Notes under the pieces: model-generated | Database searches by the model: none | What the model saw: the letters and a program-made list of their open reading frames with translations, nothing else | Told to the model about the DNA's origin: nothing | Shown: positions 2,971 to 62,789 of the stretch, piece after piece | Numbering within the stretch: position 1 is the stretch's first letter | Layout of the letters: every line of letters starts with the position of its first letter | NCBI GenBank assembly: GCA_964555185.1 | Contig: CAZKRD010000003.1 | Span: 83,943 to 147,942, forward strand | From: an uncultured Candidatus Saccharibacteria bacterium | Lineage (GTDB): Bacteria; Patescibacteriota; JAQUNI01 | Direction: 5' to 3' | Length of the DNA: 64,000 nt | Made by a program: the position numbers and the translations under genes

Positions 2971-3109
2971 AGATGTGAAGTTTTTTTGTTTCTTATTTCT
3001 TATTTTTTAATTTTTATTTATTTTTTGTTTTTTATTGAATAGTATTCCACGCTTTCTTTAAAATTTAAAAATAAGAAATAAAAAATCAATAAGAAACAAG
3101 CAAGAGGAA

Positions 3110-3147
3110 ATAAAAAATTACCCCAAATTCTTTGGGGAAATTTTTTA
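3110..3147. terminator. Bidirectional rho-independent terminator between the convergent ftsK and pyrG
   Basis: The hairpin is ccccaaattctttgggg, flanked by an A-run on the 5' side and a T-run on the 3' side. Confidence 0.55.
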
Positions 3148-6304: not shown

Positions 6305-7339
6305 ATGACAAAAGAAATAACAGAGGATGGGAAATCTCAAGCCGTGGAGGCGGCGATCAGTCAGATCAAGGAAAGGTTTGGTGAAGGATCGATTATGCAC
6401 CTTGGCGAGGCCAAGATTATGCAGGTCGAGTCGATCCCCACTGGTTCGGTTTCTTTAGATATCGCTCTTGGTATTGGCGGGGTGCCGCGCGGGAGGGTTC
6501 TTGAGATCTTCGGACCGGAAGCTTCCGGGAAGACTACCTTGGCCCAGCACATTGTGGCCGAGATTCAAAAGCGGCGAGGGGTGGCCGCTTTTGTTGATGC
6601 CGAGCACGCTTTGGATCCTGATTATGCGAAAATAATCGGTGTTAATGTGAACCAATTGTTGATTTCTCAACCCGACACAGGCGAGCAGGCATTGGAAATT
6701 GTTGAGACCCTAGTCCGCTCTAACGCGATTGATGTGATTGTGATTGATTCAGTGGCAGCTTTAACCCCCCGGGCCGAGATTGAGGGCGAGATGGGGGATG
6801 TTCATATGGGTTTGCAGGCCAGATTGATGAGTCAGGCTCTCCGCAAACTGACTGCCGTGATTGCCAAATCCAAGACCACGGTAATTTTTTTAAACCAGAC
6901 ACGGATGAAGATTGGTGTTTTTTTTGGCAATCCAGAAACGACCCCTGGCGGCAAGGCGTTGAAATTCTATGCTTCGGTCCGGATTGAGCTGCGCAGGTCT
7001 GCCCAGATTAAACAGGGTGATAAAATAATCGGCAACCGGGTTAAGGTCAAAGTGGTGAAGAACAAAGTGGCTCCTCCTTTTCAGACCTGCGAGTTTGATA
7101 TTATGTATAACGAAGGGATTTCTTATACCGGAGATCTTTTGGATGTGGGGACGGCTTACCAGGTTGTAGACAGGAGTGGGTCTTGGTATCAATATGGAGA
7201 TCAGAAATTAGGCCAAGGTAGAGAGGTAAGCAAGCGGTATTTAAGGGAAAACCCAAAGATAGCGCGCGAGATCGAGAAGAGGATTTGGCAGAAAGTAAAA
7301 GAAGAAGGAAAAGCCAAACAAGAGAAATTTGGTAAATAA
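6305..7339 (+). CDS. recA: Recombinase RecA
   Basis: The Walker A region reads [70 protein letters not shown] at 6272-6277 lies upstream. Length is 344 aa. Confidence 0.95.
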
Positions 7340-7966: not shown

Positions 7967-8197
7967 TTAACGTAAAGTAAATGGAAGGAGGGCGATAAAG
8001 CGGGCTTGTTTTACCGCTTTTTCTAATTGGCGCTGATGAGCAGAACAGGTGCCGGTTCGTTTTTTGGCCCTGATTTTGGCGTAGCTAGAAAGACACCCCT
8101 TGAGCAATTCAGGATTTTTGTAATTGATTATTTTATTAGGGTCAACGCAAAAGCGGCAGTATTTTTTGGGAGGCACGGATTTTAGTTCAAAGTTCAA
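7967..8197 (-). CDS. rpsR: 30S ribosomal protein S18
   Basis: The 76-aa protein has YCRFC...INYKNPELL...RAKKRTG.C...QRQLEKAVKQARFIALLP, the S18 signature. It sits in the conserved rpsF-ssb-rpsR arrangement. Confidence 0.9.
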   Translation of the reverse strand: MNFELKSVPPKKYCRFCVDPNKIINYKNPELLKGCLSSYAKIRAKKRTGTCSAHQRQLEKAVKQARFIALLPFTLR

Positions 8198-8228
8198 AAT
8201 TAAAAATTCAAAGTGACAAATTTCAATT

Positions 8229-10788: not shown

Positions 10789-10797
10789 AAATCAAAT

Positions 10798-10818
10798 CCC
10801 TGCCTACCGGCAGGCAGG
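10798..10818. repeat. REP-like GC-rich palindrome ccctgcctaccggcaggcagg followed by caaaatg(c/t)aaa tandem repeats
   Basis: It is a near-perfect palindrome in an AT-rich spacer. The same motif appears at 13864-13884 and 25836-25856. Confidence 0.6.
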
Positions 10819-10948
10819 TCAAAATGCAAAATGTAAATGCAAAATGTAAAATTGTCAAATTCAAAAAGTTCCATTGCTTTCATTATAGAATATTGTCAAA
10901 AAATATAAAGGGAGTATAATGTTGAAGTATCATTAACCTTCAAAATGT

Positions 10949-12373
10949 ATGAAAATAAATCCAGAGATTTTTCGCGGTTATGATCTACGAGGAGTTGTTG
11001 ACCGCGATTTAAACCCTGAAATTGTAGAACATTTGGGCAAGGCCTACGGCACTTATCTGCGCAAAAAACGGATCAAAAGGGCGGTTATTGGTTATGACTG
11101 CCGGCTATCAAGCCCTGATTACAAGCAGGCAATGATCCGCGGTCTTGTCAAAACCGGCATTGACGTGATTGATATTGGTTTGACCCTGGCCGGCACTTTT
11201 TATTGGGCCCAGTATTATTTACGATCCCGAGGCGGAGTGATGGTTACGGCTTCTCATAATCCTCCAGAGTATAATGGTTTTAAGTTCGCGCTTGGCTATT
11301 CGCGGACAATGGTTACGGACGAAATTCAGGATTTGAGAAAATTAGCAGATGGAGGACAGTTTGTCAAGGCAAAGAAGAAAGGGACGGTTAGCAAGCGGGA
11401 GATCACTGCTGCTTATTTTGCTGATTTAGCAAAACGTTTTAAGAAGATTAAGAAATTCAGAGTGGTGATTGATCCAAGCAATACCACGGCCGGCGCTTTT
11501 ATTCCCAAGCTTTTACGTAAAGTCGGCTGCACGGTGATTGAACAAAATTGCAGGATTGATGGTTCATTCCCTGTGGGCACCCCTGATCCAACCGAAAAAA
11601 AGGTAGCAGAGAGACTCTCTCGAGGGGTTCGAGAGAGAAAAGCAGACCTTGGTTTTTCTTATGATGCTGATGGCGATCGAATCGGTATTGTTGACGAGCA
11701 GGGGAATATTCTTTGGAATGATATCCTGGTTGCCTTGTTTGCGGCTGATGTCATTGATCAAAATCCAGGGGCCAAAATCGTTTTTAATACTCTATGCTCC
11801 AAAGTTGTGGAGGATGTAATTAAGGCAAAAAAGGGAAAGCCAATAATGTGGCGCACCGGACATTCTTTTATCAAAGCTCAAGCCCAGAAGATAAAGGCGA
11901 AGTTTGCCGGTGAGTTGTCGGGTCATTTCTTTTTCTTGGACAAGTTTTATGGCCATGATGACGGCGCCTATGCTACTTTGCGGGTGCTTGATTATCTTTC
12001 CCGCACCGGCCAGACTTTGGGTCAAGCGGTTGCTTCCTTTCCTAAGTACATTTCCAGCCCCGAGATCAAGGTCGGCTGTCCGGATTCAAAAAAAGTGAAG
12101 CTGATCGCAAAGATTGCGAAGGTTTTGAGAGGCGACTTTAAAGACGCAAAAGTCATTGATGATGACAAGCGGGCGGGCGACGGAGCAAGATTAGAAATGC
12201 CGGATTCGATGTTTGTGATTCGTTATTCTCAAAACGGGCCTTATCTTACGATTAAATTTGAAGCTAAGACTCAAGTAGAATATAACAGGTTGAAAAGATA
12301 TATCAACAAGCTTCTGCATTCCTATCCCGAGGTTGATTGGAGTTTTGGCGTGAATGTGGAGAGTTTGAAATAG
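10949..12373 (+). CDS. Phosphomannomutase/phosphoglucomutase (alpha-D-phosphohexomutase family)
   Basis: The active-site loop is MVTASHNPPEYNGFKF (the TASHNP phosphoserine motif). The metal-binding DADGDR motif is present. Length is 474 aa. Confidence 0.85.
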   Translation: MKINPEIFRGYDLRGVVDRDLNPEIVEHLGKAYGTYLRKKRIKRAVIGYDCRLSSPDYKQAMIRGLVKTGIDVIDIGLTLAGTFYWAQYYLRSRGGVMVTASHNPPEYNGFKFALGYSRTMVTDEIQDLRKLADGGQFVKAKKKGTVSKREITAAYFADLAKRFKKIKKFRVVIDPSNTTAGAFIPKLLRKVGCTVIEQNCRIDGSFPVGTPDPTEKKVAERLSRGVRERKADLGFSYDADGDRIGIVDEQGNILWNDILVALFAADVIDQNPGAKIVFNTLCSKVVEDVIKAKKGKPIMWRTGHSFIKAQAQKIKAKFAGELSGHFFFLDKFYGHDDGAYATLRVLDYLSRTGQTLGQAVASFPKYISSPEIKVGCPDSKKVKLIAKIAKVLRGDFKDAKVIDDDKRAGDGARLEMPDSMFVIRYSQNGPYLTIKFEAKTQVEYNRLKRYINKLLHSYPEVDWSFGVNVESLK

Positions 12374-12441
12374 GGACGATTGTGGATGAATTCTCTTGAC
12401 CAGTTTCCAGAGAGTATGATAAAGTATGATAGTATAATACT

Positions 12442-13308
12442 TTGTTATACTTTTTTTATTTTATGTCTCGTGAACGATTAACAATCACAATCAGCAAAAG
12501 ATTAATCAAACTCCTCGATGATTCAATTGATGGGGCTAAAATCAGAAATCGCTCCCACGCGATTGAGTATCTGTTAAGCAGAGTCCTAGTCCCGAAGGTG
12601 AACCGCGCGGTTATCTTAGCCGGCGGTGAAGGAGTGAAGATGCGGCCTTTTACTTATGAAATGCCTAAATCCTTGATTCCAATCAAGGGGAGGCCTCTTT
12701 TGGAACACACGATTGAGCTTTTAAGCAAACACGAGATCCGGGAGATCATTTTAGTGATCGGCCATTTGGGCGACAAGATTCGCAATCACTTTGGCGATGG
12801 TTCGCGCTTTGGCGTGAAGATCACTTATGCTGACCAGGGTGAAGCTTTCAGAGGGACCGGCGGCGCTTTGAAAGCAACGAGCCACCTAGTTGGCGGGAAG
12901 CCTTTTTTGCTGGTCTATGGCGATGTTCTAGCAGACATTGATTTACATGACTTGATTGATTTTCATAAAAGCCATGGCAAAATTATGACCATGGCCTTAA
13001 CCAGTGTAGAAGACTCCTCGATTTGGGGCGTGGTCCAACTGCACGGCACCCAGATTAGGGACTTTACCGAGAAACCAAAACCGAGCCGGAAATTGTCGCG
13101 GCTGATTAATGCCGGCATTTATGTGGTTGAGCCCAAAATCTTTGATTATTTTTTCAAGAAAAGAGTTTTTCGCCTCGAAGAGAATGTTTTCCCAAAATTG
13201 GCCCGCGAGGATCAGCTTTACGGTTATCCGTTTGAAGGCCAATGGTTTGACATCGGCACCCCCGAGATTTATGAGCGGGTTTTGAAGGAATGGAGAGGAA
13301 TAAAATAG
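12442..13308 (+). CDS. Sugar-phosphate nucleotidyltransferase with an N-terminal ribbon-helix-helix (CopG-like) extension
   Basis: The RHH-like N-terminus reads MSRERLTITISKRLIKLLDDSIDGAKIRNRSHAIEYLL. The NTP-transferase signature is AVILAGGEGVKMRPFTYEMPKSLIPIKGRPLL. The probable start is the Met at about 12466. Confidence 0.7.
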   Translation: MLYFFYFMSRERLTITISKRLIKLLDDSIDGAKIRNRSHAIEYLLSRVLVPKVNRAVILAGGEGVKMRPFTYEMPKSLIPIKGRPLLEHTIELLSKHEIREIILVIGHLGDKIRNHFGDGSRFGVKITYADQGEAFRGTGGALKATSHLVGGKPFLLVYGDVLADIDLHDLIDFHKSHGKIMTMALTSVEDSSIWGVVQLHGTQIRDFTEKPKPSRKLSRLINAGIYVVEPKIFDYFFKKRVFRLEENVFPKLAREDQLYGYPFEGQWFDIGTPEIYERVLKEWRGIK

Positions 13309-13350
13309 AATTTTCAATTTTCAAGTACCAATTTTCAATCAATTTTCAAT
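13309..13350. repeat. Left arm of a perfect 41-bp inverted repeat (aattttcaattttcaagtaccaattttcaatcaattttcaa)
   Basis: Its exact reverse complement occurs at 14975-15015 (ttgaaaattgattgaaaattggtacttgaaaattgaaaatt). I checked this base by base. Confidence 0.85.
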
Positions 13351-13479
13351 GTTTTAATGATTTAATTTTAAAAAACAAAGAATAAGGTTTTGGTTTGAAA
13401 TGTTTCAAGTCAAAATTTTGCTTTTTGGATTACATTTTTTTAGAGAAAATTCTCGATCTTTTTTTTGGAGGGAGGAACC

Positions 13480-13668
13480 ATGGGTCAAACAAATAAGCTT
13501 CCGGACTATTGTATTGCGGGTGCCATAGGTAGGGCATGCTTACAATTGAAAGGTACTGGTTGTCCTGGTCATGATTTTTGTTACCGGGGAGATGAATGTA
13601 AAAAGAAAAGAAAGGAAAGGGGGACAATAGGCCATGGATCTGACACAGTTGATCAGTCACCAGTTTAG
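13480..13668 (+). CDS. Small Cys-rich hypothetical protein (62 aa, 6 Cys)
   Basis: The protein is MGQTNKLPDYCIAGAIGRACLQLKGTGCPGHDFCYRGDECKKKRKERG... A strong SD GGAGGGAGG at 13467-13475 precedes it. A terminator follows at 13790-13819. Confidence 0.45.
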   Translation: MGQTNKLPDYCIAGAIGRACLQLKGTGCPGHDFCYRGDECKKKRKERGTIGHGSDTVDQSPV

Positions 13669-13789
13669 AGCCGGCTCAAGCAGCGCTTGCCAGAGAGTTT
13701 TTGGCTTTATGTGGCAATTCAGGGAGTGAGGGATTGGCCGCTGCCGCTGCTCTATGAATTAGTAATACCTTAGATTTGCTCTTTTTTGT

Positions 13790-13819
13790 AGGCCGATATA
13801 TCTAATCGGCCTTTTTTTG
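13790..13819 (+). terminator. Rho-independent terminator
   Basis: The stem aggccgatatatctaatcggcct is followed by TTTTTTT. Confidence 0.65.
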
Positions 13820-13863
13820 TTTGATTTAAAAAAACCAAAACCAGAGAAAAATTTTAGTTTTTG

Positions 13864-13884
13864 CCCGTCTGCCGGCAGGCAGGG
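13864..13884. repeat. REP-like palindrome cccgtctgccggcaggcaggg just 3' of trpS
   Basis: It belongs to the same cctgcc..ggcagg family. Confidence 0.55.
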
Positions 13885-13904
13885 ATTCAAGATTTTAGAT
13901 TAAA

Positions 13905-14879
13905 TCATCGTGCACCGATTTTCTTCCTAATCTCTTGCAGATTCGTTTTCGCCATTTCACGCGCTCGTTTCGCACCATCCCTTAAGATTTGTTCGACCTC
14001 TTCTGGTTTTTGTTTCAGATTTTCATAACGGATCCGGATATCACCTAGTTTGGCGGCAATGTTTTGAGCTAGAATTTTTTTGCATTCGACACAGCCTAAT
14101 TTTCCGCTTTTACAGTCTTTTTCAATGGTTGTTGCGAGATCAGTGAGGGAAAAGATTTGATGTAAAGAATAGATATTACATTTTTCCGGGTGGCCCTTTG
14201 ATCCTTTTTTGATTTTCTTGGGATCAGTAAAGGCTCCGGCCAGTTTTTTTTCTATGTTTTCTTGAGGTTCAAAGATGCCGATGTAATTATTTCTGCTTTT
14301 GCTCATTTTGTATTTTCCATCTAGGCCCACGATTCGCGGCGCTTTAGTCTTTAAGGTTTTGATTTCAGGAAAGGTGTCGCCGAATTTTTTATTGAATTTT
14401 CTGGCGACGAGGCGAGCAAATTCCAAATGAGGATCCTGATCTTGACCCACAGGCACAGCCTCGGCTTTGTAAACCAAGATATCCGCTGCCATTAAAACCG
14501 GGTAAGCTAAAAGACCGAGATTGAGATTCTCGGGAAATTGCTTCTTTTTTTCTTTATAAGTGGGCATTCTTTTGAGTAAAGGGATCTGGGTTAAGGTCCC
14601 TAAAATCCAGGCCAGTTCAGTCTGTTCGGGAATATAGGATTGCACAGCTAAAATAGATTTAGCAGGGTCAATGCCGCAGGCCAAGAGTTGAGTAGCCATT
14701 TCAAAAACGCCACGCCGCAAGTCTTTGGGTTTAAAGGGCGTGGTCAGGGCGTGGTAATCCACAATTTCGAAAATACATTGGTATTTATCTTGCAATTCCA
14801 CCCAGTTTTTGACTGCGCCAAAATAATTGCCCAGATTAAGATCACCAGTTGGACGAATGCCGGAGAAGAGGGTCTTCAT
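13905..14879 (-). CDS. trpS: Tryptophan--tRNA ligase
   Basis: MKTLFSGIRPTGDLNLGNYFGAVKNWVELQDKY...IVDYHALT aligns closely to bacterial TrpS. The KMSKS motif is present (KMSKSRNNYIGI). Length is 324 aa. Confidence 0.9.
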   Translation of the reverse strand: MKTLFSGIRPTGDLNLGNYFGAVKNWVELQDKYQCIFEIVDYHALTTPFKPKDLRRGVFEMATQLLACGIDPAKSILAVQSYIPEQTELAWILGTLTQIPLLKRMPTYKEKKKQFPENLNLGLLAYPVLMAADILVYKAEAVPVGQDQDPHLEFARLVARKFNKKFGDTFPEIKTLKTKAPRIVGLDGKYKMSKSRNNYIGIFEPQENIEKKLAGAFTDPKKIKKGSKGHPEKCNIYSLHQIFSLTDLATTIEKDCKSGKLGCVECKKILAQNIAAKLGDIRIRYENLKQKPEEVEQILRDGAKRAREMAKTNLQEIRKKIGAR

Positions 14880-14974
14880 ATAATTTTTAATTTCTAATTC
14901 TTAATTTTTAATCAATGTTTAATTTTCGAATAGATTTAATTTTCAAACAGTTTGAACATTTAGTCATTGGTTAT

Positions 14975-15015
14975 TGAAAATTGATTGAAAATTGGTACTT
15001 GAAAATTGAAAATTG
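14975..15015. repeat. Right arm of the perfect 41-bp inverted repeat
   Basis: It is the reverse complement of 13310-13350. Confidence 0.85.
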
Positions 15016-15087
15016 ATTAGTAAACCCTTCGGCAAGCTCAGGGTGGTGAGCATAGTCGAACCATTAAGAATTAAAAATTAGTGCTGA

Positions 15088-16893
15088 TTAGGCTTCAATC
15101 ACCACTGGCAAAATCATTGGTCTTCTTTCGGTTTTCTTAAACAGGTATGCGCCGATTTCATTTCTTATCCGGGATTTGATATAGGCTGCATTAGCGCTCA
15201 TATTTTTTCTGCCGGTTGGATTAACGATTCTTTTGACTTGGTTTTTGACTTCTTTTATTAGTTTATCAGATTCTTTCATATAAATAAAGCCGCGGGAAAC
15301 AATATCCGGCTCGCTGATCAGGGCCCCGTTCTCTTTGTTGATCGTGACGATTACCACGAACATCCCGTCTTTCGCCATTTGCTGACGGTCCCGCAAGACC
15401 ACCTGACCGACATCACCAACGCCCAGCCCATCAACCAGAACATATCCGGAAGGAGCTCTTTCTTTTTGGATCCGAGCGTTTTGCTTTTGGTCAATGCCTA
15501 AGATTTGTCCATTCTCCATAATAAAGATTTGTTCGTTTGTGAAACCAAGCTCTTTCGCGATCCAAGTGTGGTTAACGAGCATATGGTGTTCGCCGTGGAT
15601 TGGGATGAAATATTTCGGCTTTAAGAGGGAAAGCATCAGCTTTAGGTCTTCTTTATGTCCGTGTCCGCCTGTGTGGATGTCCATGATTTTTTCATAAAAT
15701 ACCCGTGCTCCTTGTCGGAAAAGATTGTCCATCATATTGTAGATAGAACGTTCATTGCCCGGTATTGGCGAAGAGGAGAGCAGGATAGTATCTCCTTTCT
15801 TGATTTTGATTTCTCTGTGTTCATTGCGGCTCATTCGGGCTAAAGCAGAGGCCTCTTGGCCTTGGCTGCCGGTTGCCACGATCGCCACCTTGTTCGGGGC
15901 AAGGTTTTTCGCTTGACGTAGACTGACAATGGTATTAGGCGGGATTTTGAGATAATTAAGATCGACAGCGATTTTAATACTCTTCTCCAGAGAGAGGCCG
16001 GAAAAAGCAATTTTGCGGCCGCTTGAGTAAGCAGAGTTAATTGCTTGCTGGACGCGGCTGATCAAGGAAGAGAAAGTGGCCATAATGATTCGCCCTTTCG
16101 CTGTTTCAAAGATCCGGCGCAGAGTCCGGCCGATCTTTTTTTCCGAGATAGAATGACCCTCTTTTTCTGCGCTGGTTGAGTCGCACATCGCGACCAAGAC
16201 CCCTTGTCCTCCCAGTTTTGCGATCCGAGAGAAGTCACTCGGTTTTTCGTCAACCGGGGTGTAGTCAAACTTAAAGTCGCCGGTTGTAACGCAAAGCCCG
16301 ACTGGTGTATAGATCGCAATCCCTACTCCATCAGGGATATTGTGGTTGACCCGAAAGAATTCGAGCTCAAAGTCGCCGATCCGGATGTTGTCATTAACCG
16401 TAAAGGTGTTCAGCTTGGATTTGTTATTCATCTTGAATTCAGAGAGCCGGTCGCGCAGAAACGCCATAGTCAGGGGCGTACCGTAAAGATAAGGATTTCC
16501 TAATTTTTCTAAGAGATAGGGGACAGCACCAATGTGATCTAAATGGCCGTGGGTAAAGACTACGCCCCGGATGTTTTTCCGCCTTTTTACAAGATAAGAA
16601 ATATCAGGGATCACATAATCAATTCCCAGCATTTCTTCGTTAGGAAACATCAGGCCCATATCCACAATCAAAATATCATTGCCGTATTCAAACACAGTCA
16701 TATTCCTGCCCACTTCTTCTAAGCCTCCCAAGGGGATTATTTTCAAAAGTTTTTTTTCTTTTGGTTTTGGCTGCTTTTGCTTGACTTTTATTTTTTTGGG
16801 AGGACTAGTGGTTTTAGGTTTGCTTTTTCGAGGAGCGATTTCTAGAGTAGGGATTGGTTTGGTTTTGAATTTTGGTCTTTTTGTTTTGGACAT
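15088..16893 (-). CDS. rnj: Ribonuclease J (metallo-beta-lactamase/beta-CASP) with a 55-aa K/P-rich N-terminal extension
   Basis: The zinc motif is VVFTHGHLDHIGAVPYLL (HxHxDH). A beta-CASP region and an RNase J C-terminal domain are present. Length is 601 aa. Confidence 0.9.
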   Translation of the reverse strand: MSKTKRPKFKTKPIPTLEIAPRKSKPKTTSPPKKIKVKQKQPKPKEKKLLKIIPLGGLEEVGRNMTVFEYGNDILIVDMGLMFPNEEMLGIDYVIPDISYLVKRRKNIRGVVFTHGHLDHIGAVPYLLEKLGNPYLYGTPLTMAFLRDRLSEFKMNNKSKLNTFTVNDNIRIGDFELEFFRVNHNIPDGVGIAIYTPVGLCVTTGDFKFDYTPVDEKPSDFSRIAKLGGQGVLVAMCDSTSAEKEGHSISEKKIGRTLRRIFETAKGRIIMATFSSLISRVQQAINSAYSSGRKIAFSGLSLEKSIKIAVDLNYLKIPPNTIVSLRQAKNLAPNKVAIVATGSQGQEASALARMSRNEHREIKIKKGDTILLSSSPIPGNERSIYNMMDNLFRQGARVFYEKIMDIHTGGHGHKEDLKLMLSLLKPKYFIPIHGEHHMLVNHTWIAKELGFTNEQIFIMENGQILGIDQKQNARIQKERAPSGYVLVDGLGVGDVGQVVLRDRQQMAKDGMFVVIVTINKENGALISEPDIVSRGFIYMKESDKLIKEVKNQVKRIVNPTGRKNMSANAAYIKSRIRNEIGAYLFKKTERRPMILPVVIEA

Positions 16894-17003
16894 ATTTTGT
16901 AAGCTAAGAGCTAAAAGTGTAAAGCTAAAAGTTAGAAATTTAAAAAACTTTTAATTTTAGACTCAACTTTTAACTTTGCATTTTTAACTTTGAACTGAAT
17001 CTG

Positions 17004-17088
17004 TGCCGGAGGTGGGATTCGAACCCACAAGCCATTTTGTGGCACGCGGCCCTGAACCGCGCATGTTTTCCAGTTTCATCACTCCGGC
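17004..17088 (-). tRNA. tRNA-Leu (anticodon CAG), 85 nt, no encoded CCA
   Basis: The reverse complement reads GCCGGAG...CGCGG-TTCAGGG-CCGCG...TGTGGGTTCGAATCCCACCTCCGGCA. It has a long variable arm, a GTTCGAATC T-loop, and a matching 7-bp acceptor stem. Confidence 0.7.
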
Positions 17089-17203
17089 CAATTGGGAGCA
17101 TTATTTTTAACATAAAATTTGAGCGGAAGCAACGCCTTTTATTTTTTATTATTTTTTTAAAACAATGGAACAATAAAATAATGAAATGATTTTTGTTTTT
17201 ATC

Positions 17204-18985
17204 TTAATCCTCTTTTTTAACCCATTTCCTTTCCTGTTCAATGTACCAGTCTGACAGCCCGGCGAATCTTTCATGGGGGAACACGACTTCCTGGGCCTTG
17301 ATCCCTTTGATTTTTTTAGTGATGCCGTAAAGATAATGAGGGGTGTAAAGAGGGATTACGGGTGTTTCTTGGCTGATGATTTCTTCCAGCGCCTTGTATT
17401 TTTCTTTTCTCTCTTCTGGATTTAAGGTCCTGATTTCTTCTAAGATTTTGTCAGCCTCTTGATTTTCAAAGCAGGCGATATTGAGCCCTGGGTCTTTGAT
17501 TTGAGAGGAATGCCAGAAAATGTAAGGGTCGGGGTTGTGGACCAGGATCTCTCCGTAGAGCAGGGCTTCGAAATTGCGCGGCCTGATGTATTCCTGTTGG
17601 ATTTTGGCAGTGTTGTAAGATTCAGTGACTAATTCGATCCCCGCTTGTTTGTATTTTGCTTTTAAAATTTCCGCGGTTTTTAAGTATTCGGGCCAATCAG
17701 TAGTGACCAAGGTCAAGCTTAGTCGTTCTGCGGCTTTAGTATAGATGCCGTCTTCTTCATCTTTTGTCCATTCTTGGGCTTCTAACAATTCCTCTGCCTT
17801 GAGAGGATCGAATTCTCTTGTGGCAAGTTCATCATCTTTGCTAAGGAGCAGAGGGGAATAGATTATTTTGCCGTTGCCAAAGATCGCTTGCTCTAGGATT
17901 TCTGTTTTTGGCGTAGCGTACTCCAGAGCTTGTCTGATATATTGATTTTCTAAAAGTTCGTTTTGGTTTTGGTTTAAGAAAATAGAGTAGGCGTGGGGCA
18001 GTTCTAGTGAATAAATCTCCAGGTATTCGCCGCCGTTTAGTCTGTCCTTCTTTTCTTTTGGGATATAGGAAAGACCGTCTACCTGCCTTGCTTTTAGGTC
18101 GGAGAGCAGGCTCTCAAAATCAGGATAAAATTGGAAGCTGATTTTTTCCAAAAAAGGAGATTTGCCGTAATAATGAGGATTGGGTTTTAAGGAATAAGAT
18201 TCAATATTGCCCTCTTTATTTTTTTTAAGCTTGTGAAACTGCCAGGGTCCGGACCCGATCGGTTTTAGGTTGTATTCAGCCAGGGCGGCATTAGCTGACG
18301 GAATGGTTTCCCAGATGTGCATTGGCAGGATGCCGAAATTTAAGTTAGAGAGAAAAGGGGAATAGGGTTCTTTTAAGACAAACTTCAATGTTCTCTCGTC
18401 AATTTGATCCATCTTTACGCCCAAGAAAACCGAGCGCAGAGGACTTTTAAAATCTGGGTCTTGAATCCGATGCACGGTGAAGATGATGTCATCGGTGGCT
18501 AATGGCTCGCCGTCCTGCCAAAAGAGGTTGGGTTTCAGGGTGAATCGGTAAGTTTTTTTATCTTCAGAAATTTCGTACTCCGAAGCTAAGTCCAGAGCCA
18601 GTTCTTGATTTTGATCGTATTTGACAAGACCTGAGAAAATGAGGCTGGATAGGTCCAGATCGATATCATTGGTTTGGGCCAGGGCTGGATTGATGTACTT
18701 GGGCTGGCCGACCATTCCTTCTGTGTATTGGCCGCCGACCTTCGGGACTAGCTCTGAATGCTTGAGATAATAGATTTGAATCCAGAAGATTAGGCTGACA
18801 ATAATAATGCCGGCAAGGGTGAAAATCAGAATTCGTTCCCAGGTGGTTAAGGTGCGGGGGAGATTGGCGATTTGTTTTAATTTGGGAATCTTGAGTTTTT
18901 TTGATTCTTCTCGAGAAAAAAACTGAGTCCGCTGGGAGCGGATTTTTTTTAAGCCATCAAGGGATTTTTTAAAAGGTGGCTTCAT
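17204..18985 (-). CDS. ABC-transporter-type extracellular solute-binding protein, family 5 (peptide/nickel-like), N-terminally membrane-anchored
   Basis: The protein is 593 aa with one N-terminal TM helix. The SBP_bac_5-like core includes LKPNLFWQDGEPLATDDIIFT. No permease gene is adjacent. Confidence 0.6.
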   Translation of the reverse strand: MKPPFKKSLDGLKKIRSQRTQFFSREESKKLKIPKLKQIANLPRTLTTWERILIFTLAGIIIVSLIFWIQIYYLKHSELVPKVGGQYTEGMVGQPKYINPALAQTNDIDLDLSSLIFSGLVKYDQNQELALDLASEYEISEDKKTYRFTLKPNLFWQDGEPLATDDIIFTVHRIQDPDFKSPLRSVFLGVKMDQIDERTLKFVLKEPYSPFLSNLNFGILPMHIWETIPSANAALAEYNLKPIGSGPWQFHKLKKNKEGNIESYSLKPNPHYYGKSPFLEKISFQFYPDFESLLSDLKARQVDGLSYIPKEKKDRLNGGEYLEIYSLELPHAYSIFLNQNQNELLENQYIRQALEYATPKTEILEQAIFGNGKIIYSPLLLSKDDELATREFDPLKAEELLEAQEWTKDEEDGIYTKAAERLSLTLVTTDWPEYLKTAEILKAKYKQAGIELVTESYNTAKIQQEYIRPRNFEALLYGEILVHNPDPYIFWHSSQIKDPGLNIACFENQEADKILEEIRTLNPEERKEKYKALEEIISQETPVIPLYTPHYLYGITKKIKGIKAQEVVFPHERFAGLSDWYIEQERKWVKKED

Positions 18986-22939: not shown

Positions 22940-25777
22940 ATGCCAAAAGAAATTCTGATCCGCGGGGCGCGGGTCCATAATTTAAAGAACATTGATCTTA
23001 AGATCCCGCGAGACAAACTGGTTGTGATCACTGGTCTTTCTGGTTCTGGGAAGTCTTCTTTGGCTTTTGACACGATTTATGCTGAAGGGCAAAGGCGGTA
23101 TGTCGAGAGTCTCTCTGCTTATGCCCGGCAGTTTTTGGGATTGATGGACAAGCCGGATGTGGATCAGATTGAAGGGTTGTCGCCCGCGATCTCGATTGAC
23201 CAAAGGTCAGCTTCTTCTAATCCCCGTTCGACCGTGGGCACGATCACGGAAATTTATGACTATCTAAGACTGCTATTCGCGCGAGTGGGCAGACCGCATT
23301 GCTCGAAGTGCGGTAAGCCGGTTTCAGCTCAGACCGTAAGCCAAATCACGGATAAAATCCTTTCGGTTCGCAAAGGGACCAAGGTGGTCATTCTAGCGCC
23401 AATGGTTCGCGATCAGAAAGGCGAACACAAAAGAGAGATTGCCGAGATTCAGAAAGCGGGTTTTGTTCGGGTGCGTCTGGATGGGACAATTATGGATGTA
23501 GAGGAAGCCTTAGAGACTGCGATTAATCGACGGAGGAGACACAACTTGGATGTGGTTGTTGATCGGTTGATCTTAGAGAAAAACAAAGAAGAGCGGGAGC
23601 GGCTTGTTGATTCTCTGGAGACTGCTTTGGATTTGGGCAATGGCTTGGTGATTATCAATCAGCCTGATGCCAAAAAGGACGTTCTTTTTTCGGAACACTT
23701 TGCTTGTCCGGATTGCGATATTAGCCTGCCGGCTTTGGAGCCGCGCAATTTTTCTTTTAATTCTCCGCACGGCGCCTGTCCTGAATGCACGGGTTTGGGC
23801 ACCAAGCTTGAGATTGATCAGAAGCTGATTATTCCGAATAAAAAGCTCTCGGTGCGCGAAGGAGCGATCCGGCCTTGGGCGCGGGCCGTTTCGGCTGGCG
23901 GCTGGTATATCCAGATGCTGGAATCAGTAGCCAGTCACTATGGCTTCTCTTTAGATCTTGCTGTAAATAAATTAAAACAGGACGATCTCAATATCATTCT
24001 TTACGGTACCAAAGGCGAGCGAGTGCCCACTACTTATCGTAAAGAGTATAGGCATTTTGAGGCAAAGATTCCTTTTGAGGGCGTGATCCCGAATCTGGAG
24101 CGCAGGTACAAAGAGACCCAGTCTGACTATATCCGGCGCGAGATTGAAAAGTATATGCGGATCTATCCCTGCCCGACCTGCCAGGGCGCCCGCCTCAAAC
24201 TCGAGATTTTAGCTGTCACTGTAGGAGAGAGATCAATTATTGATATTGTCAGGATGAACATTGCCGAAACCTCTGATTTCTTTAAGGATTTGAGTAAGTC
24301 TTTAACCCCTAAAGAAAGGATAATTGCGAAGCAGATCCTAAAAGAGATCAGAGAACGGCTTTCTTTTTTGCAGAATGTGGGTCTGCCTTATTTAACCCTA
24401 GACCGCTCCGCTTCTTCTCTGGCCGGGGGCGAGGCCCAGAGGATCAGACTGGCGACTCAGATTGGTTCTTCACTTTCTGGCGTTCTCTATATTTTAGATG
24501 AACCTTCAATCGGTTTACATCAGAGGGATAACCTGCGGCTCCTTGCTACCTTGAAGCAGTTAAGGGATCGGGGTAATACCGTGATTGTGGTTGAACATGA
24601 TGAAGAAACGATCTTGAATGCCGACCACATTATTGATATCGGACCAGGGGCAGGCAAACACGGCGGCGAGATCGTGACCCAAGGTTCGCCTGCACAGGTT
24701 AAGAATTGCAAAAAGTCCTTAACCGGCCAGTATCTAGCCCACAGATTGGAAATTCCTCTACCTCAACACTATCGTCGCGGCAATAGCCGCAAGGTTTCGA
24801 TTAAAGGAGCAAGAGAGCACAACTTGAAGAATATTGATGTTGAGATTCCTTTGGCCAAATTCGTTTGCATCACCGGTGTTTCTGGTTCAGGCAAGTCCAC
24901 TTTGATGGATGATATCTTGGCGCGGGCCTTGGCCCAAAAGTTTTATCGCGCAAAAAGACTGCCGGGAAAACACAGACGGATCACGGGTTTTTCTTATTTA
25001 GATAAAGTGATTACGATTGACCAGTCGCCGATCGGCCGGACGCCCCGTTCCAACCCAGCTACTTATACCGGCGTTTTTACTCCGATCCGCGAACTTTACG
25101 CCAAAGCCCCGGAAGCCAAGATCCGCGGCTATCGGGCGGGCCGGTTCAGTTTTAATGTTAAAGGCGGGCGCTGCGAGGCCTGCCGCGGCGAGGGCTTGGT
25201 CAGGATTGAAATGCAGTTTCTGCCTGATGTTTATGTGGAGTGTGAGGAGTGCCAAGGCAGCCGTTACAACAAGGCGGCTTTGGAGATTTATTGTAAAGGG
25301 AAGAACATCGCGCAGGTTTTGGAAATGACCGTGGAAGAGGCCTTGCAGTTTTTTTACAATATTCCGATTGTTCGTCAAAAATTTCAAATATTAAGTGAGG
25401 TCGGATTGGGTTATCTCCGCTTGGGGCAGCCCGCGCCTACCCTGTCTGGCGGCGAGGCGCAGAGAGTCAAATTAGCCACTGAACTTTCGCGCCGGGCCAC
25501 AGGCAAGACCCTCTACATTTTAGACGAGCCCACAACCGGTCTCCATTTTGATGATGTGAAGAGACTCTTAGGGGTCCTGAATCAATTAGTGGATAAAAAG
25601 AATACGGTTTTGGTGATTGAACACAATCTGGATGTGATTAAATCCGCGGATTGGATTATTGATTTGGGGCCGGAAGGAGGAGAGGCCGGAGGGGAGATTG
25701 TGGCACAGGGCACGCCGCGGCAGATGGCGAGAGTGAAGAAGAGTTATACGGGGCAGTTTTTGAAAAAATATTTTTAA
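22940..25777 (+). CDS. uvrA: Excinuclease ABC subunit A
   Basis: The protein is 945 aa. It has two ABC ATPase modules ([19 protein letters not shown] and [15 protein letters not shown]) and zinc-finger Cys pairs (CPDC, CPEC, CEAC, CEEC). Confidence 0.95.
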
Positions 25778-25804
25778 CATCTCAAATCTCAAAAGTCAAA
25801 AATG

Positions 25805-25856
25805 CCTCGCCTACCGGGAGGCAGGCAAATTAAATCCCTGCCTGCCTGCCGGCAGG
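25805..25856. repeat. Two adjacent REP-like GC-rich palindromes (cctcgcctaccgggaggcagg; ccctgcctgcctgccggcagg) flanked by imperfect inverted (a/g)tctcaaa/gtcaaaa tandem repeats
   Basis: Read directly from the uvrA 3' spacer. The second palindrome is perfect over 20 nt. Confidence 0.65.
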
Positions 25857-25939
25857 TTAAAAATATTTTTGACTTTCCCTCGACCTGAGGCTCGAGACTC
25901 GAAGGTTGATCTACATTTTTGAGATTTGACTTTTGACTT

Positions 25940-26905
25940 TTGACTTTTTATAACCGAGGAGATCCAACTCTAAGAAAGAGTATTTTATATACTCTCCACT
26001 ACTTCAACCTTCAAGGTAAGCCCTTGACTTTATTTGAGTGTTGGCGCAATCTTTTTTGGGCGGGCAAGGGAAGGCCTGTGATAGATTTGTTAGCGCTCCA
26101 GAGGGTTTTGGAAAAGATGCCAGGGGTGGAAACGGGGAGGGGATTTTACTTTTTAAAAGGCGACCTGGGTTTGGTTAAAAAAAGATTAGATTTTCACAAT
26201 TTTTCCCAGCCCAAATGGAAGCGGGCGAGAAGAGTAACGCGGCTTTTAGCTTTATTGCCTTTTGTCCGGATGATAGGGGTCTGCAATACAGTCGCTTTTA
26301 ATACTGCTAACCGCGAGAGTGATATTGATCTCTTGATTATTGTCAGGACAGGCAGAATGTGGACAGCCAGATTTTTGGTAACCTCTTTAGTTTCTTTTTT
26401 GGGTTTGCGGCGGCATAAAGACAAGATCGCTGACCGTCTCTGCCTCTCTTTTTATTTAGCTGATTCCCATTTGGATCTTCAGAAGGTTGCTTTGAAAGAC
26501 AAGGGTGAGATCCGTGATCCTTATTTGGCTCATTGGTTATCACAGGTCAGTCCGATTTACGATGATGGTGTTGCTTTAGAATTTTTTCGTCAGAACAAAA
26601 AACTCCTCTCGTCTTTGCCTTTTTATGTCCGATATTCCGGCGTGCCGCGGAGAATCGTGAAGCCTTTGATCCTTGGCGAGATTGCCAAGAGATTGCAGGA
26701 AATGTTGTTAGGTCACAGATTGGGAGATCTGATCGAGGCGGCTTTAAAAAAAATCCAGATTTCCAAGATGTCGCGCAACACTAAAAGTGCTGCCCAAGAG
26801 GATAATACCAAGGTTATTATTTCTGACGAGATTCTCAAATTTCACGAAAAAGATCTGCGTGAATATTACCACGATACTCTTGCCAAAAGATTTGGTTTGG
26901 TGTAG
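25940..26905 (+). CDS. Hypothetical protein, putative Pol-beta-superfamily nucleotidyltransferase
   Basis: GVCNTVAFNTANRESDIDLLIIV resembles the GS-x(n)-DxD nucleotidyltransferase motif. It is otherwise unrecognised. Confidence 0.35.
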   Translation: MTFYNRGDPTLRKSILYTLHYFNLQGKPLTLFECWRNLFWAGKGRPVIDLLALQRVLEKMPGVETGRGFYFLKGDLGLVKKRLDFHNFSQPKWKRARRVTRLLALLPFVRMIGVCNTVAFNTANRESDIDLLIIVRTGRMWTARFLVTSLVSFLGLRRHKDKIADRLCLSFYLADSHLDLQKVALKDKGEIRDPYLAHWLSQVSPIYDDGVALEFFRQNKKLLSSLPFYVRYSGVPRRIVKPLILGEIAKRLQEMLLGHRLGDLIEAALKKIQISKMSRNTKSAAQEDNTKVIISDEILKFHEKDLREYYHDTLAKRFGLV

Positions 26906-27324: not shown

Positions 27325-29022
<1,698 letters not shown>

Positions 29023-48251: not shown

Positions 48252-48386
48252 ATAATTTCCGAATGACCAATTTCCAATTTTTTAGATCAATAACAAGATG
48301 AATGTTTGGAAATTGGATGTTGCTCACCTTCCGAGGTCTGGGCGCGAGAACAGGGATTTGTTTAGGTAGAGCTTAGAATTTTAATT

Positions 48387-62713: not shown

Positions 62714-62745
62714 TGTTTGAATTTAGAATTTTGAATTTAGAATTT
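62709..62745 (+). repeat. AT-rich tandem repeat (gaatttagaatttt x about 2.4)
   Basis: Read directly from the sequence. Confidence 0.6.
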
Positions 62746-62789
62746 TGAATTCTGTATTTAATATTTTTTTATATTTTAGGTTTCAACAA

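What the first reader, a model, noticed from the sequence alone, without database searches (positions are those of the whole stretch)
13309..15015. Perfect 41-bp inverted repeats bracket a 1.6-kb cassette holding trpS and a small SD-driven Cys-rich ORF
The sequence aattttcaattttcaagtaccaattttcaatcaattttcaa at 13310-13350 recurs as an exact reverse complement at 14975-15015. I checked this base by base. The bracketed segment holds a 62-aa six-Cys ORF with a strong SD (GGAGGGAGG), its own terminator, a REP-like palindrome, and trpS on the opposite strand. Perfect 41-bp arms in an AT-rich genome imply a recent event or active maintenance. The cassette could be a DNA-invertible segment that flips trpS and the small ORF relative to outside promoters. 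It could also be a TIR-bounded non-autonomous mobile cassette carrying an aminoacyl-tRNA synthetase, or a footprint of recombination. No recombinase or transposase is visible in the window.
Basis: seen in the sequence. Interest (0 to 1): 0.72.

Follow-up and report, generated by a model that had tools for sequence, protein, structure and literature searches.

The report
Two heptamer-repeat copies flanking trpS
The perfect inverted repeat is real, but its arms are two copies of a short AT-rich 7-base repeat element found at gene ends in many candidate-phyla-radiation bacteria, and nothing shows that the trpS segment between them flips or moves.

Summary
A 42-nt perfect inverted repeat lies at 13309-13350 and 14973-15014, with none expected by chance. 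The invertible or mobile cassette reading does not hold.

Each arm is a tandem array of the heptamer AATTTTC. It is one of 13 period-7 arrays in the window's intergenic spacers. The arm's 22-nt core matches at least 120 metagenome contigs exactly. Their shared consensus is a 42-nt "head" with the same limits as the arms, usually starting at a gene boundary.

NTP-transferase and RNase J read inward towards the block. Each is followed by such a head, so the two copies are necessarily inverted.

Six relatives keep the same gene order and trpS orientation, and the four checked lack the repeat. The closest relative has only a 28-nt left array and no right arm. Both arms share a private AAGTACC unit seen in 0 of 122 family members. 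The right arm is therefore most likely a recent local inverted copy.

No recombinase lies within -13 to +18 kb. There is no target-site duplication. Both enclosed genes keep their own upstream regions.

Separately, the enclosed block has about 3-4 times the synonymous divergence of its flanks against the closest relative, which points to past recombination. Read-level orientation could not be tested.

The parts
13309..13350 (+). Left arm. A 42-nt heptamer-array "head" (AATTTTC AATTTTC AAGTACC AATTTTC AATC AATTTTC AAT) that starts at the base after the NTP-transferase stop codon.
   Evidence: Searches give the exact inverted repeat. TRF finds period 7 with 6.4 copies. The family profile scores E 5e-11. 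The orthologous 28-nt array is at the same site in L017, and a 22-nt array in L145.
14973..15014 (-). Right arm. An identical 42-nt head on the minus strand, 73 nt downstream of the RNase J stop codon and 94 nt upstream of the trpS ATG. It is nested inside another heptamer palindrome.
   Evidence: E 1e-10. It is absent from the orthologous spacer of L017, and L145's spacer has no array.
12463..13308 (+). Nucleotidyl-transferase gene reading inward. Its stop codon abuts the left arm.
   Evidence: PF00483, E 1e-39. Gene call.
15088..16893 (-). RNase J gene reading inward (541-601 aa depending on the start chosen). The right-hand spacer begins after its stop codon.
   Evidence: PF22505, PF17770 and PF00753..
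13351..13479 (+). Upstream region of the small ORF. Positions 13351-13427 are about 95% identical to L017 and contain a hairpin at about 13376-13425. The Shine-Dalgarno sequence GGAGGGAGGA is at 13467-13476.
13480..13668 (+). Small 62-aa ORF with five Cys. It belongs to a lineage-restricted 4-Cys protein family held at this syntenic position.
   Evidence: Syntenic homologues in L017, L146 and L147 have P8, C11, C28, C34 and C40 invariant. There is no Pfam hit and no other database homologue.
13790..13812 (+). Intrinsic-terminator-like hairpin plus T-run after the small ORF. L017 has a hairpin at the same place with different stem bases on both sides.
13864..13883 (.). GC-rich palindrome (CCCGTCTGCCGGCAGGCAGG) just downstream of trpS. 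It is a member of a small in-window family and is absent at this site in L017.
   Evidence: I15; D4, I4.
13905..14879 (-). trpS (tryptophan-tRNA ligase, 324 aa). There is no Shine-Dalgarno sequence, and a heptamer array ends 2 nt before its ATG.
   Evidence: PF00579.. Sequence.
14881..14953 (.). Proximal half of the RNase J-trpS spacer palindrome. It holds a TAATTTT array (14881-12). Positions 14888-14905 pair with 15063-15080, and 14909-14932 pair weakly with 14996-15019.
   Evidence: I5; I12. RNA fold of the whole spacer gives z = -4.4.
15025..15080 (.). GC-rich 38-nt insert (15025-15062) followed by the distal heptamer array (15063-15080), which starts 7 nt after the RNase J stop codon. Together with the right arm this is a roughly 120-nt stretch absent from L017.
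   Evidence: Logan unitig L144 ends inside it at 15048.
13428..15085 (.). Block with anomalously high divergence from the closest relative L017. It includes the right arm but not the left.

Best explanation
The two arms are two copies of one short intergenic element. It is a 42-nt "head" made of AATTTTC heptamers that normally starts at a gene boundary.

This element type is widespread in metagenomes. The source organism and at least one other carrier are Patescibacteria (candidate phyla radiation, CPR). It is one flavour of the period-7 arrays that fill many intergenic spacers of this genome.

NTP-transferase (plus strand) and RNase J (minus strand) read towards each other. Each is followed by a head in the same gene-relative orientation. 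The two heads are therefore inverted with respect to each other, and they happen to enclose the two convergent genes that lie between them, the small ORF and trpS.

The left copy is ancestral. The right copy was created recently in this lineage. It is a local inverted copy placed in the loop of a pre-existing spacer palindrome. The most likely mechanism is replication template switching or short-tract non-allelic gene conversion between AT-rich arrays.

The repeat is a by-product of how these arrays spread. It is not a switch or a transposon end.

Shown: the anatomy, the family, the synteny, the absence of the right arm in relatives, and the private shared variant. Inferred: the copying mechanism, and any role of the arrays as transcribed AU-rich spacer or hairpin elements at gene boundaries.
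For: The arms are heptamer arrays.
- TRF finds 13 period-7 arrays of at least 4 copies in the window, each with its own unit.

There is a family.
- The flanks of 118 distinct copies give the consensus AATTTTCAATTTtCAATTTt + core. Its 5' limit is sharp at -20, the same 42-nt extent as the arms.
- The head starts -4 to +12 nt from a stop codon in about 30 of 49 co-oriented cases.

The window is CPR.
- The closest named GroEL hits, at 83%, are Parcubacteria, Patescibacteria and Doudnabacteria.
- One family locus carries a Vogelbacteria protein.

Synteny and orientation are fixed.
- L017, L018, L019, L145, L147 and L148 all keep trpS pointing at NTP-transferase.
- No flanking inverted repeat is found in L017, L018 or L019.

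Polarity of the copy.
- L017 has a 28-nt left array at the orthologous site, 14 nt shorter with 1 mismatch, and no right arm.
- L145 has a 22-nt left array and no right array.

The copy is recent.
- Both arms share the AAGTACC unit, found in 0 of 122 family heads.
- A family profile finds only these two copies in 64 kb.

Local spread of same-flavour arrays recurs elsewhere.
- L112 has 59-61-nt exact inverted repeats in three consecutive spacers of a ribosomal-protein operon.
- L045 has a 32-nt exact inverted repeat 4.6 kb apart.
Against: - Identity stops exactly at the limits of the conserved head, and the tails differ. A random gene-conversion tract would not be expected to end there. The head may be a discrete copied module or under strong constraint, in which case the copy could be older.
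- The right arm lies inside the block that is divergent from L017. Its absence in L017 could therefore reflect replacement of that spacer in L017 rather than a gain here.
- Neither arm has a significant local pairing partner (z -0.95 and +0.07). About half of family members do. That leaves room for the two arms being each other's functional partner.
- The rest of the 707-kb genome could not be scanned for further copies.
- No read-level data on orientation were available.
Confidence: 0.68

Rival explanations
1. Homologous (RecA-dependent) recombination between the two perfect 42-bp arms inverts the 1.6-kb segment at some frequency. This would give an orientation polymorphism, neutral or functional, whose recombination also keeps the arms identical.
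For: - The arms are perfect 42-bp inverted repeats 1.6 kb apart.
- recA is encoded about 6 kb away at 6305-7339.
- Concerted evolution of the arms fits, given the shared private variant.
- k=31 unitigs cannot see orientation, so the Logan data do not speak against it.
Against: - The segment has the same orientation in the source scaffold, in the independent NCBI contig across the left arm, and in six relatives.
- The scaffold assembled through both arms without a break.
- Both genes and their upstream regions lie inside the arms, so inversion changes no promoter-gene link.
- 42 bp is near the lower limit for efficient RecA recombination (own knowledge).
- No dedicated recombinase lies within -13 to +18 kb.
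Confidence: 0.1
2. The arms are the ends of a non-autonomous mobile or exchangeable cassette that carries trpS and the small ORF. The high divergence of the enclosed block reflects cassette replacement by horizontal transfer.
For: - The enclosed block differs from L017 far more than the flanks. Fourfold-degenerate sites differ at 38.6% against 11.6%, p = 1e-10. dS is 0.83 against 0.14-0.27, with dN/dS 0.13.
- The TrpS N-terminal third is mosaic.
- In other genomes, inverted arrays of the same family bracket a PF05635 gene in 9 loci.
Against: - trpS sits at this locus, in this orientation, in all six relatives, down to about 71% nucleotide identity, without such arms.
- The divergent block (13428-15085) does not coincide with the arms. 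The left arm lies 77 nt outside it and the right arm lies inside it.
- The middle of trpS is as similar to L017 as the flanks are (dS 0.36). This indicates ordinary homologous recombination tracts rather than swapping of a whole unit.
- There is no target-site duplication.
- No transposase was found.
Confidence: 0.07
3. The arms act as partners at the RNA level. In a read-through transcript they form a 42-bp duplex that RNase III cuts. This would parallel the stems of 23S rRNA intervening sequences, which also enclose a gene.
For: - The family often forms hairpins. In 47% of members z is below -2, against 12% of controls.
- It encloses 23S_rRNA_IVP genes between inverted arrays in 9 loci.
- It sits between cistrons of a ribosomal-protein operon.
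- Neither window arm has a good local partner.
Against: - A single transcript holding both arms must run antisense through one of the two genes and past a terminator (13790-13812 or the palindrome at 13864-13883).
- The right arm is absent in relatives that have the same genes.
- No RNA data are available.
Confidence: 0.07
4. The right arm is an assembly artefact of the source scaffold, for example a mis-join through a repeated k-mer.
For: No contig independent of the ENA scaffold covers 14951-15047. Logan unitigs stop at 14950 and 15048.
Against: - Logan unitigs break 30 nt into the left arm from both sides. This requires a second context for the same 42-mer in those samples.
- The flanks on both sides of the right spacer are collinear with L017.
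- The right spacer has a coherent nested-palindrome structure.
Confidence: 0.03

Closest known systems
Intergenic heptamer tandem repeats: cyanobacterial STRR sequences (own knowledge, Mazel et al. 1990) and TAACTGA repeats of Beggiatoaceae, cyanobacteria and Bacteroidetes (PMC4679880)
   Same: - Short arrays of 2-9 copies of a 7-nt unit.
- Confined to intergenic spacers.
- Often end within a few nt of a start codon.
- Found even inside ribosomal-protein operons.
- Occur in spacers that lack a canonical ribosome-binding site, as with trpS here.
- Sporadic distribution across lineages.
   Different: - The unit is AATTTTC or CAATTNN, not TAACTGA or CCCCAGT.
- The host is Patescibacteria.
- Arrays are frequently paired as inverted halves forming palindromes.
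- A specific 42-nt head is conserved across many genomes.
- Many different units coexist in one genome.
- The function is untested in both cases.
REP/BIME, Correia and other MITE-like intergenic palindromic repeats
   Same: - Small non-coding repeats at gene ends and between cistrons.
- Hairpin-capable.
- Co-transcribed with neighbouring genes.
- Copies can be nested.
- Near-identical copies occur in neighbouring spacers.
   Different: - AT-rich tandem heptamer construction instead of a unique GC-rich palindrome.
- No target-site duplication.
- No associated transposase (RAYT or similar) seen.
- Only the 42-nt head is shared between the two window copies, not a whole element.
Invertible DNA switches (fimS, hin, Bacteroides invertons, shufflons)
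   Same: Inverted repeats flanking a segment of about a kilobase.
   Different: - No recombinase gene nearby.
- Complete genes with their own upstream regions lie inside the arms.
- Only one orientation is seen in all available assemblies and relatives.
- The arms are copies of a generic repeat family.
23S rRNA intervening sequences carrying a PF05635 ORF (Leptospira, Coxiella; own knowledge)
   Same: Inverted-repeat stems enclose a gene. In 9 related metagenome loci the enclosed gene is exactly this PF05635 family.
   Different: - The window's arms enclose trpS and a small Cys protein, not PF05635.
- The location is not in rRNA.
- RNase III processing is untested.
Quasipalindrome correction and inverted duplication by replication template switching (own knowledge; Ripley, Lovett)
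   Same: It produces perfect inverted copies of short tracts between nearby imperfect inverted sequences. It needs no recombinase and leaves no target-site duplication.
   Different: It is usually documented over tens of bases, not 1.6 kb. The mechanism here is inferred only.

Membership tests
Site-specific invertible DNA switch | Inverted repeats flank the segment | tested here: met
   42-nt perfect inverted repeat at 13309-13350 and 14973-15014.
Site-specific invertible DNA switch | Tyrosine or serine recombinase encoded nearby | tested here: not met
   Pfam annotations for all genes from window 81 to about 32257 show none. Those found are FtsK, CTP synthase, RecA, EF-P, SSB, S6, YchF, PGM, NTP-transferase, TrpS, RNase J, SBP, UvrC, UvrA, GroES/EL and epimerases. 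Three ORFs have no hit. The window beyond 32 kb was not scanned.
Site-specific invertible DNA switch | Both orientations exist in a population or among strains | tested here: inconclusive
   Only one orientation is seen, in the ENA scaffold, in NCBI contig L005 across the left arm, and in six relatives.
Site-specific invertible DNA switch | Inversion reconnects a promoter or coding part with an outside gene | tested here: not met
   Both genes are complete and keep 130 nt and 94 nt of their own upstream sequence inside the arms. The flanking genes end outside the arms.
TIR-bounded mobile element or cassette (MITE or composite transposon) | Terminal inverted repeats | tested here: met
TIR-bounded mobile element or cassette (MITE or composite transposon) | Target-site duplication directly outside the repeats | tested here: not met
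   The sequence outside the left arm is ...ATAAAATAG. The sequence outside the right arm is GATTAGTAAA... There is no direct repeat.
TIR-bounded mobile element or cassette (MITE or composite transposon) | Presence or absence of the unit at the locus among relatives (empty site) | tested here: not met
   trpS, with a small-ORF slot, lies next to NTP-transferase in all six relatives. RNase J (or a partial upstream ORF) lies on the other side in L017, L018, L145 and L147. The four checked have no such arms.
TIR-bounded mobile element or cassette (MITE or composite transposon) | Further copies of the whole unit elsewhere | not testable with these tools
   Only 64 kb of the 707-kb scaffold is held. 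There is no second trpS in the window.
Intergenic heptamer tandem-repeat arrays (STRR / TAACTGA type) | Tandem 7-nt units of at least 2-3 copies | tested here: met
   TRF gives period 7 with 6.4 and 6.7 copies at the two arms.
Intergenic heptamer tandem-repeat arrays (STRR / TAACTGA type) | Intergenic position, close to gene boundaries | tested here: met
   The left arm starts at the base after a stop codon. Family heads lie -4 to +12 nt from stop codons in about 30 of 49 cases.
Intergenic heptamer tandem-repeat arrays (STRR / TAACTGA type) | Many arrays per genome and recurrence across genomes | tested here: met
   There are 13 period-7 arrays of at least 4 copies in the 64-kb window. At least 120 metagenome contigs carry the 22-nt core. 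Within the window only the two arms belong to this particular flavour.
Intergenic heptamer tandem-repeat arrays (STRR / TAACTGA type) | Same heptamer unit as the described families | tested here: not met
   The unit is AATTTTC or CAATTNN, not TAACTGA or the STRR units.
23S-rRNA-IVS-like element | Inverted-repeat stem enclosing a PF05635 ORF | tested here: not met
   The window's arms enclose trpS and a 62-aa Cys protein with no Pfam hit. PF05635 is enclosed in 9 other family loci.
23S-rRNA-IVS-like element | RNase III excision of the stem | not testable with these tools
   No RNA data are available.
TIGR-Tas guide-RNA arrays | Adjacent Tas (Nop-domain) gene and box C/D-flanked dual spacers | tested here: not met
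   There is no such gene among the annotated neighbours. The array is a plain heptamer repeat. The family description is read from PMC12045711.

The most novel reading that the evidence does not exclude
The 42-nt heptamer head is a discrete, copied module of an undescribed element that marks gene boundaries and can enclose genes. The element may be Patescibacteria-wide. Its empty form is a hairpin, and its filled form encloses a PF05635 gene. On this reading the trpS and small-ORF block is a genuine enclosed unit. Pairing of the arms would have a consequence, either as DNA (inversion, or a hotspot for allelic exchange) or as RNA (an RNase III stem). Such pairing could explain why the enclosed block has 3-4 times the synonymous divergence of its flanks.
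Probability: 0.1. Interest if true: 0.7.

Novelty: new variant of a known kind. Interest (0 to 1): 0.33.

Why it matters
Taken as found, this removes an attractive but unsupported claim of an invertible or mobile aminoacyl-tRNA-synthetase cassette. It also shows how a perfect inverted repeat can arise from two copies of a generic gene-end repeat placed behind two converging genes.

The more useful outcome is the repeat family itself. A 42-nt heptamer head is conserved in more than a hundred metagenome contigs. It abuts stop or start codons, and it fills spacers even inside a ribosomal-protein operon. It often forms palindromes and sometimes encloses 23S_rRNA_IVP genes. I found no description of it in the searched literature.

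If these arrays have a role in transcript processing, in translation initiation without a Shine-Dalgarno sequence, or in local rearrangement, they would be a general feature of gene organisation in a very large and poorly understood bacterial radiation. They also break short-read assemblies at k=31, which matters for reconstructing CPR genomes.

Tried and rejected
- Rfam (E-value mode, 12000-17500): nothing at the arms, and no T-box or leader for trpS.
- Literature search for the arm sequence and for CPR intergenic repeats: no description found.
- TIGR-Tas arrays were considered because they occur in CPR. They were rejected because there is no Tas gene and no box C/D architecture.
- Promoter reading of the arms: each arm holds a TTGAAA-N17-GAAAAT match, but it points outward into the 3' end of the flanking gene. 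The count is not above shuffles, at 7 against 5.0 +/- 1.9.
- Local hairpin partner for each arm: not significant. The strong fold of the right spacer (z = -4.4) comes mainly from an outer 18-nt repeat, not from the arm.
- Genome-contig scan with TrpS: only distant hits of 48% or less, so it was no use for synteny.
- Small-ORF homology search: only itself was found. Homologues came from synteny instead.
- Viral contigs: the 22-mer hits one unrelated phage coding locus only, and the arm-specific 22-mer has no hit.
- Cluster look-ups for taxon names: mostly empty.
- Look-ups of flanking proteins for contigs with the opposite junction: none found, but the data cannot exclude it.
- Split-palindrome origin (genes inserted into a hairpin): rejected, because trpS predates the right arm in all relatives.
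Full report
OBSERVATION.
The repeat exists. Arms of 42 nt at 13309-13350 and 14973-15014 are 100% complementary and lie 1622 nt apart. Even with three mismatches allowed, these are the only two copies in the 64-kb window, and none was expected in 100 shuffles.

- a Shine-Dalgarno sequence at 13467-13476;
- a 62-aa ORF at 13480-13668;
- a terminator-like hairpin at 13790-13812;
- a GC-rich palindrome at 13864-13883;
- trpS at 13905-14879 on the minus strand.

The small protein has five cysteines, not six. The window is about 42% GC.

An independent NCBI assembly contig (L005) matches 12555-14567 exactly. Logan k=31 unitigs break 30 nt into the left arm from both sides, which requires a second context for the same 42-mer. 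The right arm itself is covered only by the source scaffold.

WHAT THE ARMS ARE.
Each arm is a tandem array of the heptamer AATTTTC: AATTTTC AATTTTC AAGTACC AATTTTC AATC AATTTTC AAT. TRF finds 13 period-7 arrays of at least four copies in the window. Each has its own unit. Those I placed against the ORF map lie in spacers between genes, and several are paired as local palindromes.

Aligning 118 distinct copies by the core gives the consensus AATTTTCAATTTtCAATTTt + CAATTTTCAATCAATTTTCAAT + gatt.AATTTTcAAa. Its 5' boundary is sharp at -20, so the conserved head has exactly the 42-nt extent of the window's arms.

When the upstream gene is co-oriented, the head begins -4 to +12 nt from its stop codon in about 30 of 49 cases. 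When the neighbouring gene is on the other strand, the head tends to abut its start codon.

About half of the copies fold significantly better than shuffles. In 47% z is below -2, against 12% for control segments.

In locus L112 the same kind of palindromic element fills three consecutive spacers of a ribosomal-protein operon (L14, L24, L5, S14). Exact inverted matches of 59-61 nt lie 0.4-1.2 kb apart there.

The window's organism is a member of the Patescibacteria. GroEL is 83% identical to Parcubacteria, Patescibacteria and Doudnabacteria entries, and the source scaffold is 707 kb. One family locus carries a protein identical to a Vogelbacteria entry. The taxonomy of the other loci is not established.

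WHY THE TWO COPIES ARE INVERTED.
NTP-transferase (12463-13308, plus strand) and RNase J (15088-16893, minus strand) read towards each other. The left head starts at the base after the NTP-transferase stop codon.

The right head lies downstream of the RNase J stop codon, in the same orientation relative to that gene. It is separated from the stop codon by a short TAATTTT-type array (15063-15080) and a 38-nt GC-rich insert (15025-15062).

That outer array pairs with 14888-14905, next to the trpS start codon. The right arm therefore sits nested in the loop of another heptamer palindrome, one that spans the whole RNase J-trpS spacer. Two heads that each follow an inward-reading gene must be inverted relative to each other.

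COMPARATIVE EVIDENCE.
Six relatives were recovered through TrpS homologues:
- L017 (TrpS 84% identical; flanks 92-96% identical at nucleotide level);
- L018, L019, L145, L147 and L148 (about 71-75% nucleotide identity).

All keep trpS pointing towards NTP-transferase, with a variable slot of small ORFs between them. Where the upstream side is on the contig, RNase J or a partial ORF is co-directional with trpS (L017, L018, L145, L147). No flanking inverted repeat was found in L017, L018 or L019, and L145's spacers show none.

At the orthologous left site, L017 has a 28-nt version of the array, two heptamer units shorter with one mismatch. L145 has a 22-nt version. L147 and L148 have arrays of another unit there.

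At the right site, L017 has a simple palindrome of CCAATGA-type units and nothing resembling the arm. Relative to L017 the window has about 120 extra bases there, comprising the outer array, the GC-rich insert and the arm.

Both window arms share the deviant unit AAGTACC, which none of 122 family heads has. A profile of the family finds only these two copies in the window (E about 1e-10), plus L017's left array.

The simplest history is an ancestral left array and a recent inverted copy of its head placed in the right spacer.

THE ENCLOSED BLOCK HAS ITS OWN HISTORY.
Against L017 the flanking genes have dS of 0.14-0.27. trpS has dS of 0.83 with a normal dN/dS of 0.13. By thirds of the gene, dS is 1.8 in the N-terminal third, 0.36 in the middle and 1.17 in the C-terminal third. 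The small ORF is 47% identical at protein level, with dS of 0.86.

At fourfold-degenerate sites the flanks differ at 100 of 860 positions and trpS at 39 of 101 (Fisher p = 1e-10). In the N-terminal third the two TrpS proteins are each closer to a third sequence (79-81%) than to each other (74%). Against the more distant relatives, trpS is no more divergent than the flanks.

This is the signature of homologous recombination tracts from diverged lineages in one of the two genomes. It is not the signature of relaxed selection.

The divergent block runs from about 13428 to 15085. Its left end is 77 nt inside the left arm. Its right end is at the RNase J stop codon, outside the right arm. The arms are therefore not the recombination endpoints.

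Invertible switch:
- No recombinase lies among the genes from window 81 to about 32 kb.
- Only one orientation is seen wherever it can be seen.
- Both genes keep their own upstream regions inside the arms.

Mobile cassette:
- There is no target-site duplication.
- There is no empty site in any relative.
- There is no second trpS in the window.

The arms contain a -35/-10-like match, but it points outward and is not above chance. RecA-mediated inversion between 42-bp repeats cannot be excluded without reads, because k=31 unitigs cannot see it.

MECHANISM.
Shown: the array nature of the arms, the family, the gene-boundary rule, fixed synteny, absence of the right arm in relatives, and the shared private variant.

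Inferred: the right arm arose by replication template switching or short-tract non-allelic conversion between nearby AT-rich arrays. This would be quasipalindrome-type copying, which needs no recombinase and leaves no duplication. Nearby same-flavour arrays in L112 and L045 suggest that such local spread recurs.

The arrays' function is unknown. The most likely role is as transcribed AU-rich spacer or hairpin elements at cistron boundaries. They could also serve as platforms for translation initiation without a Shine-Dalgarno sequence, since trpS has none and an array ends 2 nt before its ATG. That role was proposed for TAACTGA repeats (PMC4679880).

COMPARISON WITH KNOWN SYSTEMS.
The closest known kind is the intergenic heptamer tandem repeat: cyanobacterial STRR (own knowledge) and TAACTGA repeats. 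REP- and MITE-like palindromic repeats are a second analogue. The unit, the host, the palindromic pairing and the conserved 42-nt head all differ from those. I found no description of this family in the searched literature.

CAVEATS.
- Identity ends exactly at the limits of the conserved head. The head may be a copied module or under constraint, and the copy could then be older than argued.
- The right arm lies inside the divergent block. Its absence from L017 may therefore reflect replacement in L017.
- Most of the genome was not available.
- Logan unitigs stop unexpectedly at 14950, which is unexplained.

Noticed in passing
L024, L042, L062, L073, L076, L100, L121, L127, L137 (for example L127:54-523, L073:680-1290): In 9 of the 120 metagenome loci, a PF05635 (23S_rRNA_IVP, four-helix-bundle) gene of about 120 aa lies between a CAATTTT-type array upstream and an inverted array downstream. 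The arrays are about 40 nt and 80-90% complementary. This is the same geometry as the window's arms around the small ORF and trpS. It suggests elements like rRNA intervening sequences located outside rRNA, with empty and filled forms.
   Followed up: partly
L112:9973-11288: In a ribosomal-protein operon (L14, L24, L5, S14), every spacer is filled from stop codon to start codon by a palindromic heptamer element of 115-155 nt. Exact inverted matches of 59-61 nt link neighbouring spacers, and no Shine-Dalgarno sequences are visible.
   Followed up: partly
window 2982-3118, 8184-8226, 10820-10852, 16901-16996, 25772-25953, 27353-27386, 48222-48322, 62719-62751: Other intergenic period-7 arrays are present, each with a different unit (TTTTTTA/AAATAAG, AGTTCAA, CAAAATG, AAGCTAA/AACTTTT, TCTCAAA/TTTTGAC, GTTACAA, AATTTCC, GAATTTA). 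Several form local palindromes. The one at 16900-16998 weakly matches a miRNA-precursor model on both strands.
   Followed up: partly
window 13428-15085 compared with L017:4368-5880: trpS and the small ORF are far more divergent from the closest relative than the flanking genes are. Fourfold-degenerate sites differ at 38.6% against 11.6%. The pattern inside trpS is mosaic, with dS of 1.8, 0.36 and 1.17 by thirds. No donor lineage was found.
   Followed up: yes
window 10789-10824, 13855-13890, 25796-25862: A small family of GC-rich palindromes (CCCTGCCTGCCGGCAGGCAGG-like) is present. Two copies sit inside the loop of the heptamer palindrome at 25772-25953. The copy after trpS is absent in L017.
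   Followed up: no
window 15025-15062: A 38-nt GC-rich element (GGTTCGACTATGCTCACCACCCTGAGCTTGCCGAAGGG on the minus strand) is inserted between the RNase J stop codon and the right arm. It is single-copy in the window and in all loci. Logan unitig L144 ends inside it at 15048, which hints at further copies elsewhere in the sample.
   Followed up: partly
window 14950-14951: Logan unitigs from several runs (L002, L003) end at 14950. That is 22 nt before the right arm's inner edge, whereas about 15002 would be expected for k=31. The cause could be strain heterogeneity or a third copy of the arm plus its tail. It remains unexplained.
   Followed up: no
window 13480-13668; L017:5635-5826; L146:1237-1419; L147:1411-1584; also L018:7114-7797, L019:1778-2613, L148:2582-3397: The gap between trpS and NTP-transferase is a variable slot for small ORFs. 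Four genomes hold a fast-evolving protein of about 60 aa with four invariant Cys (P8, C11, C28, C34, C40). It has no Pfam or database match. Three other genomes hold different small ORFs there.
   Followed up: partly
window 14829-14846 (TrpS residues 12-17): The window's TrpS has TGDLNLGN where all nine closest homologues have H at the HIGH-motif position (xHLGN or xHIGN). This is one of 14 substitutions private to this protein. The KMSKS motif is intact.
   Followed up: no
L152-L160, L022, L050: The only matches of the 22-nt core in viral contigs are one conserved phage coding locus unrelated to the array family. Two of the metagenome hits are the same locus.
   Followed up: yes
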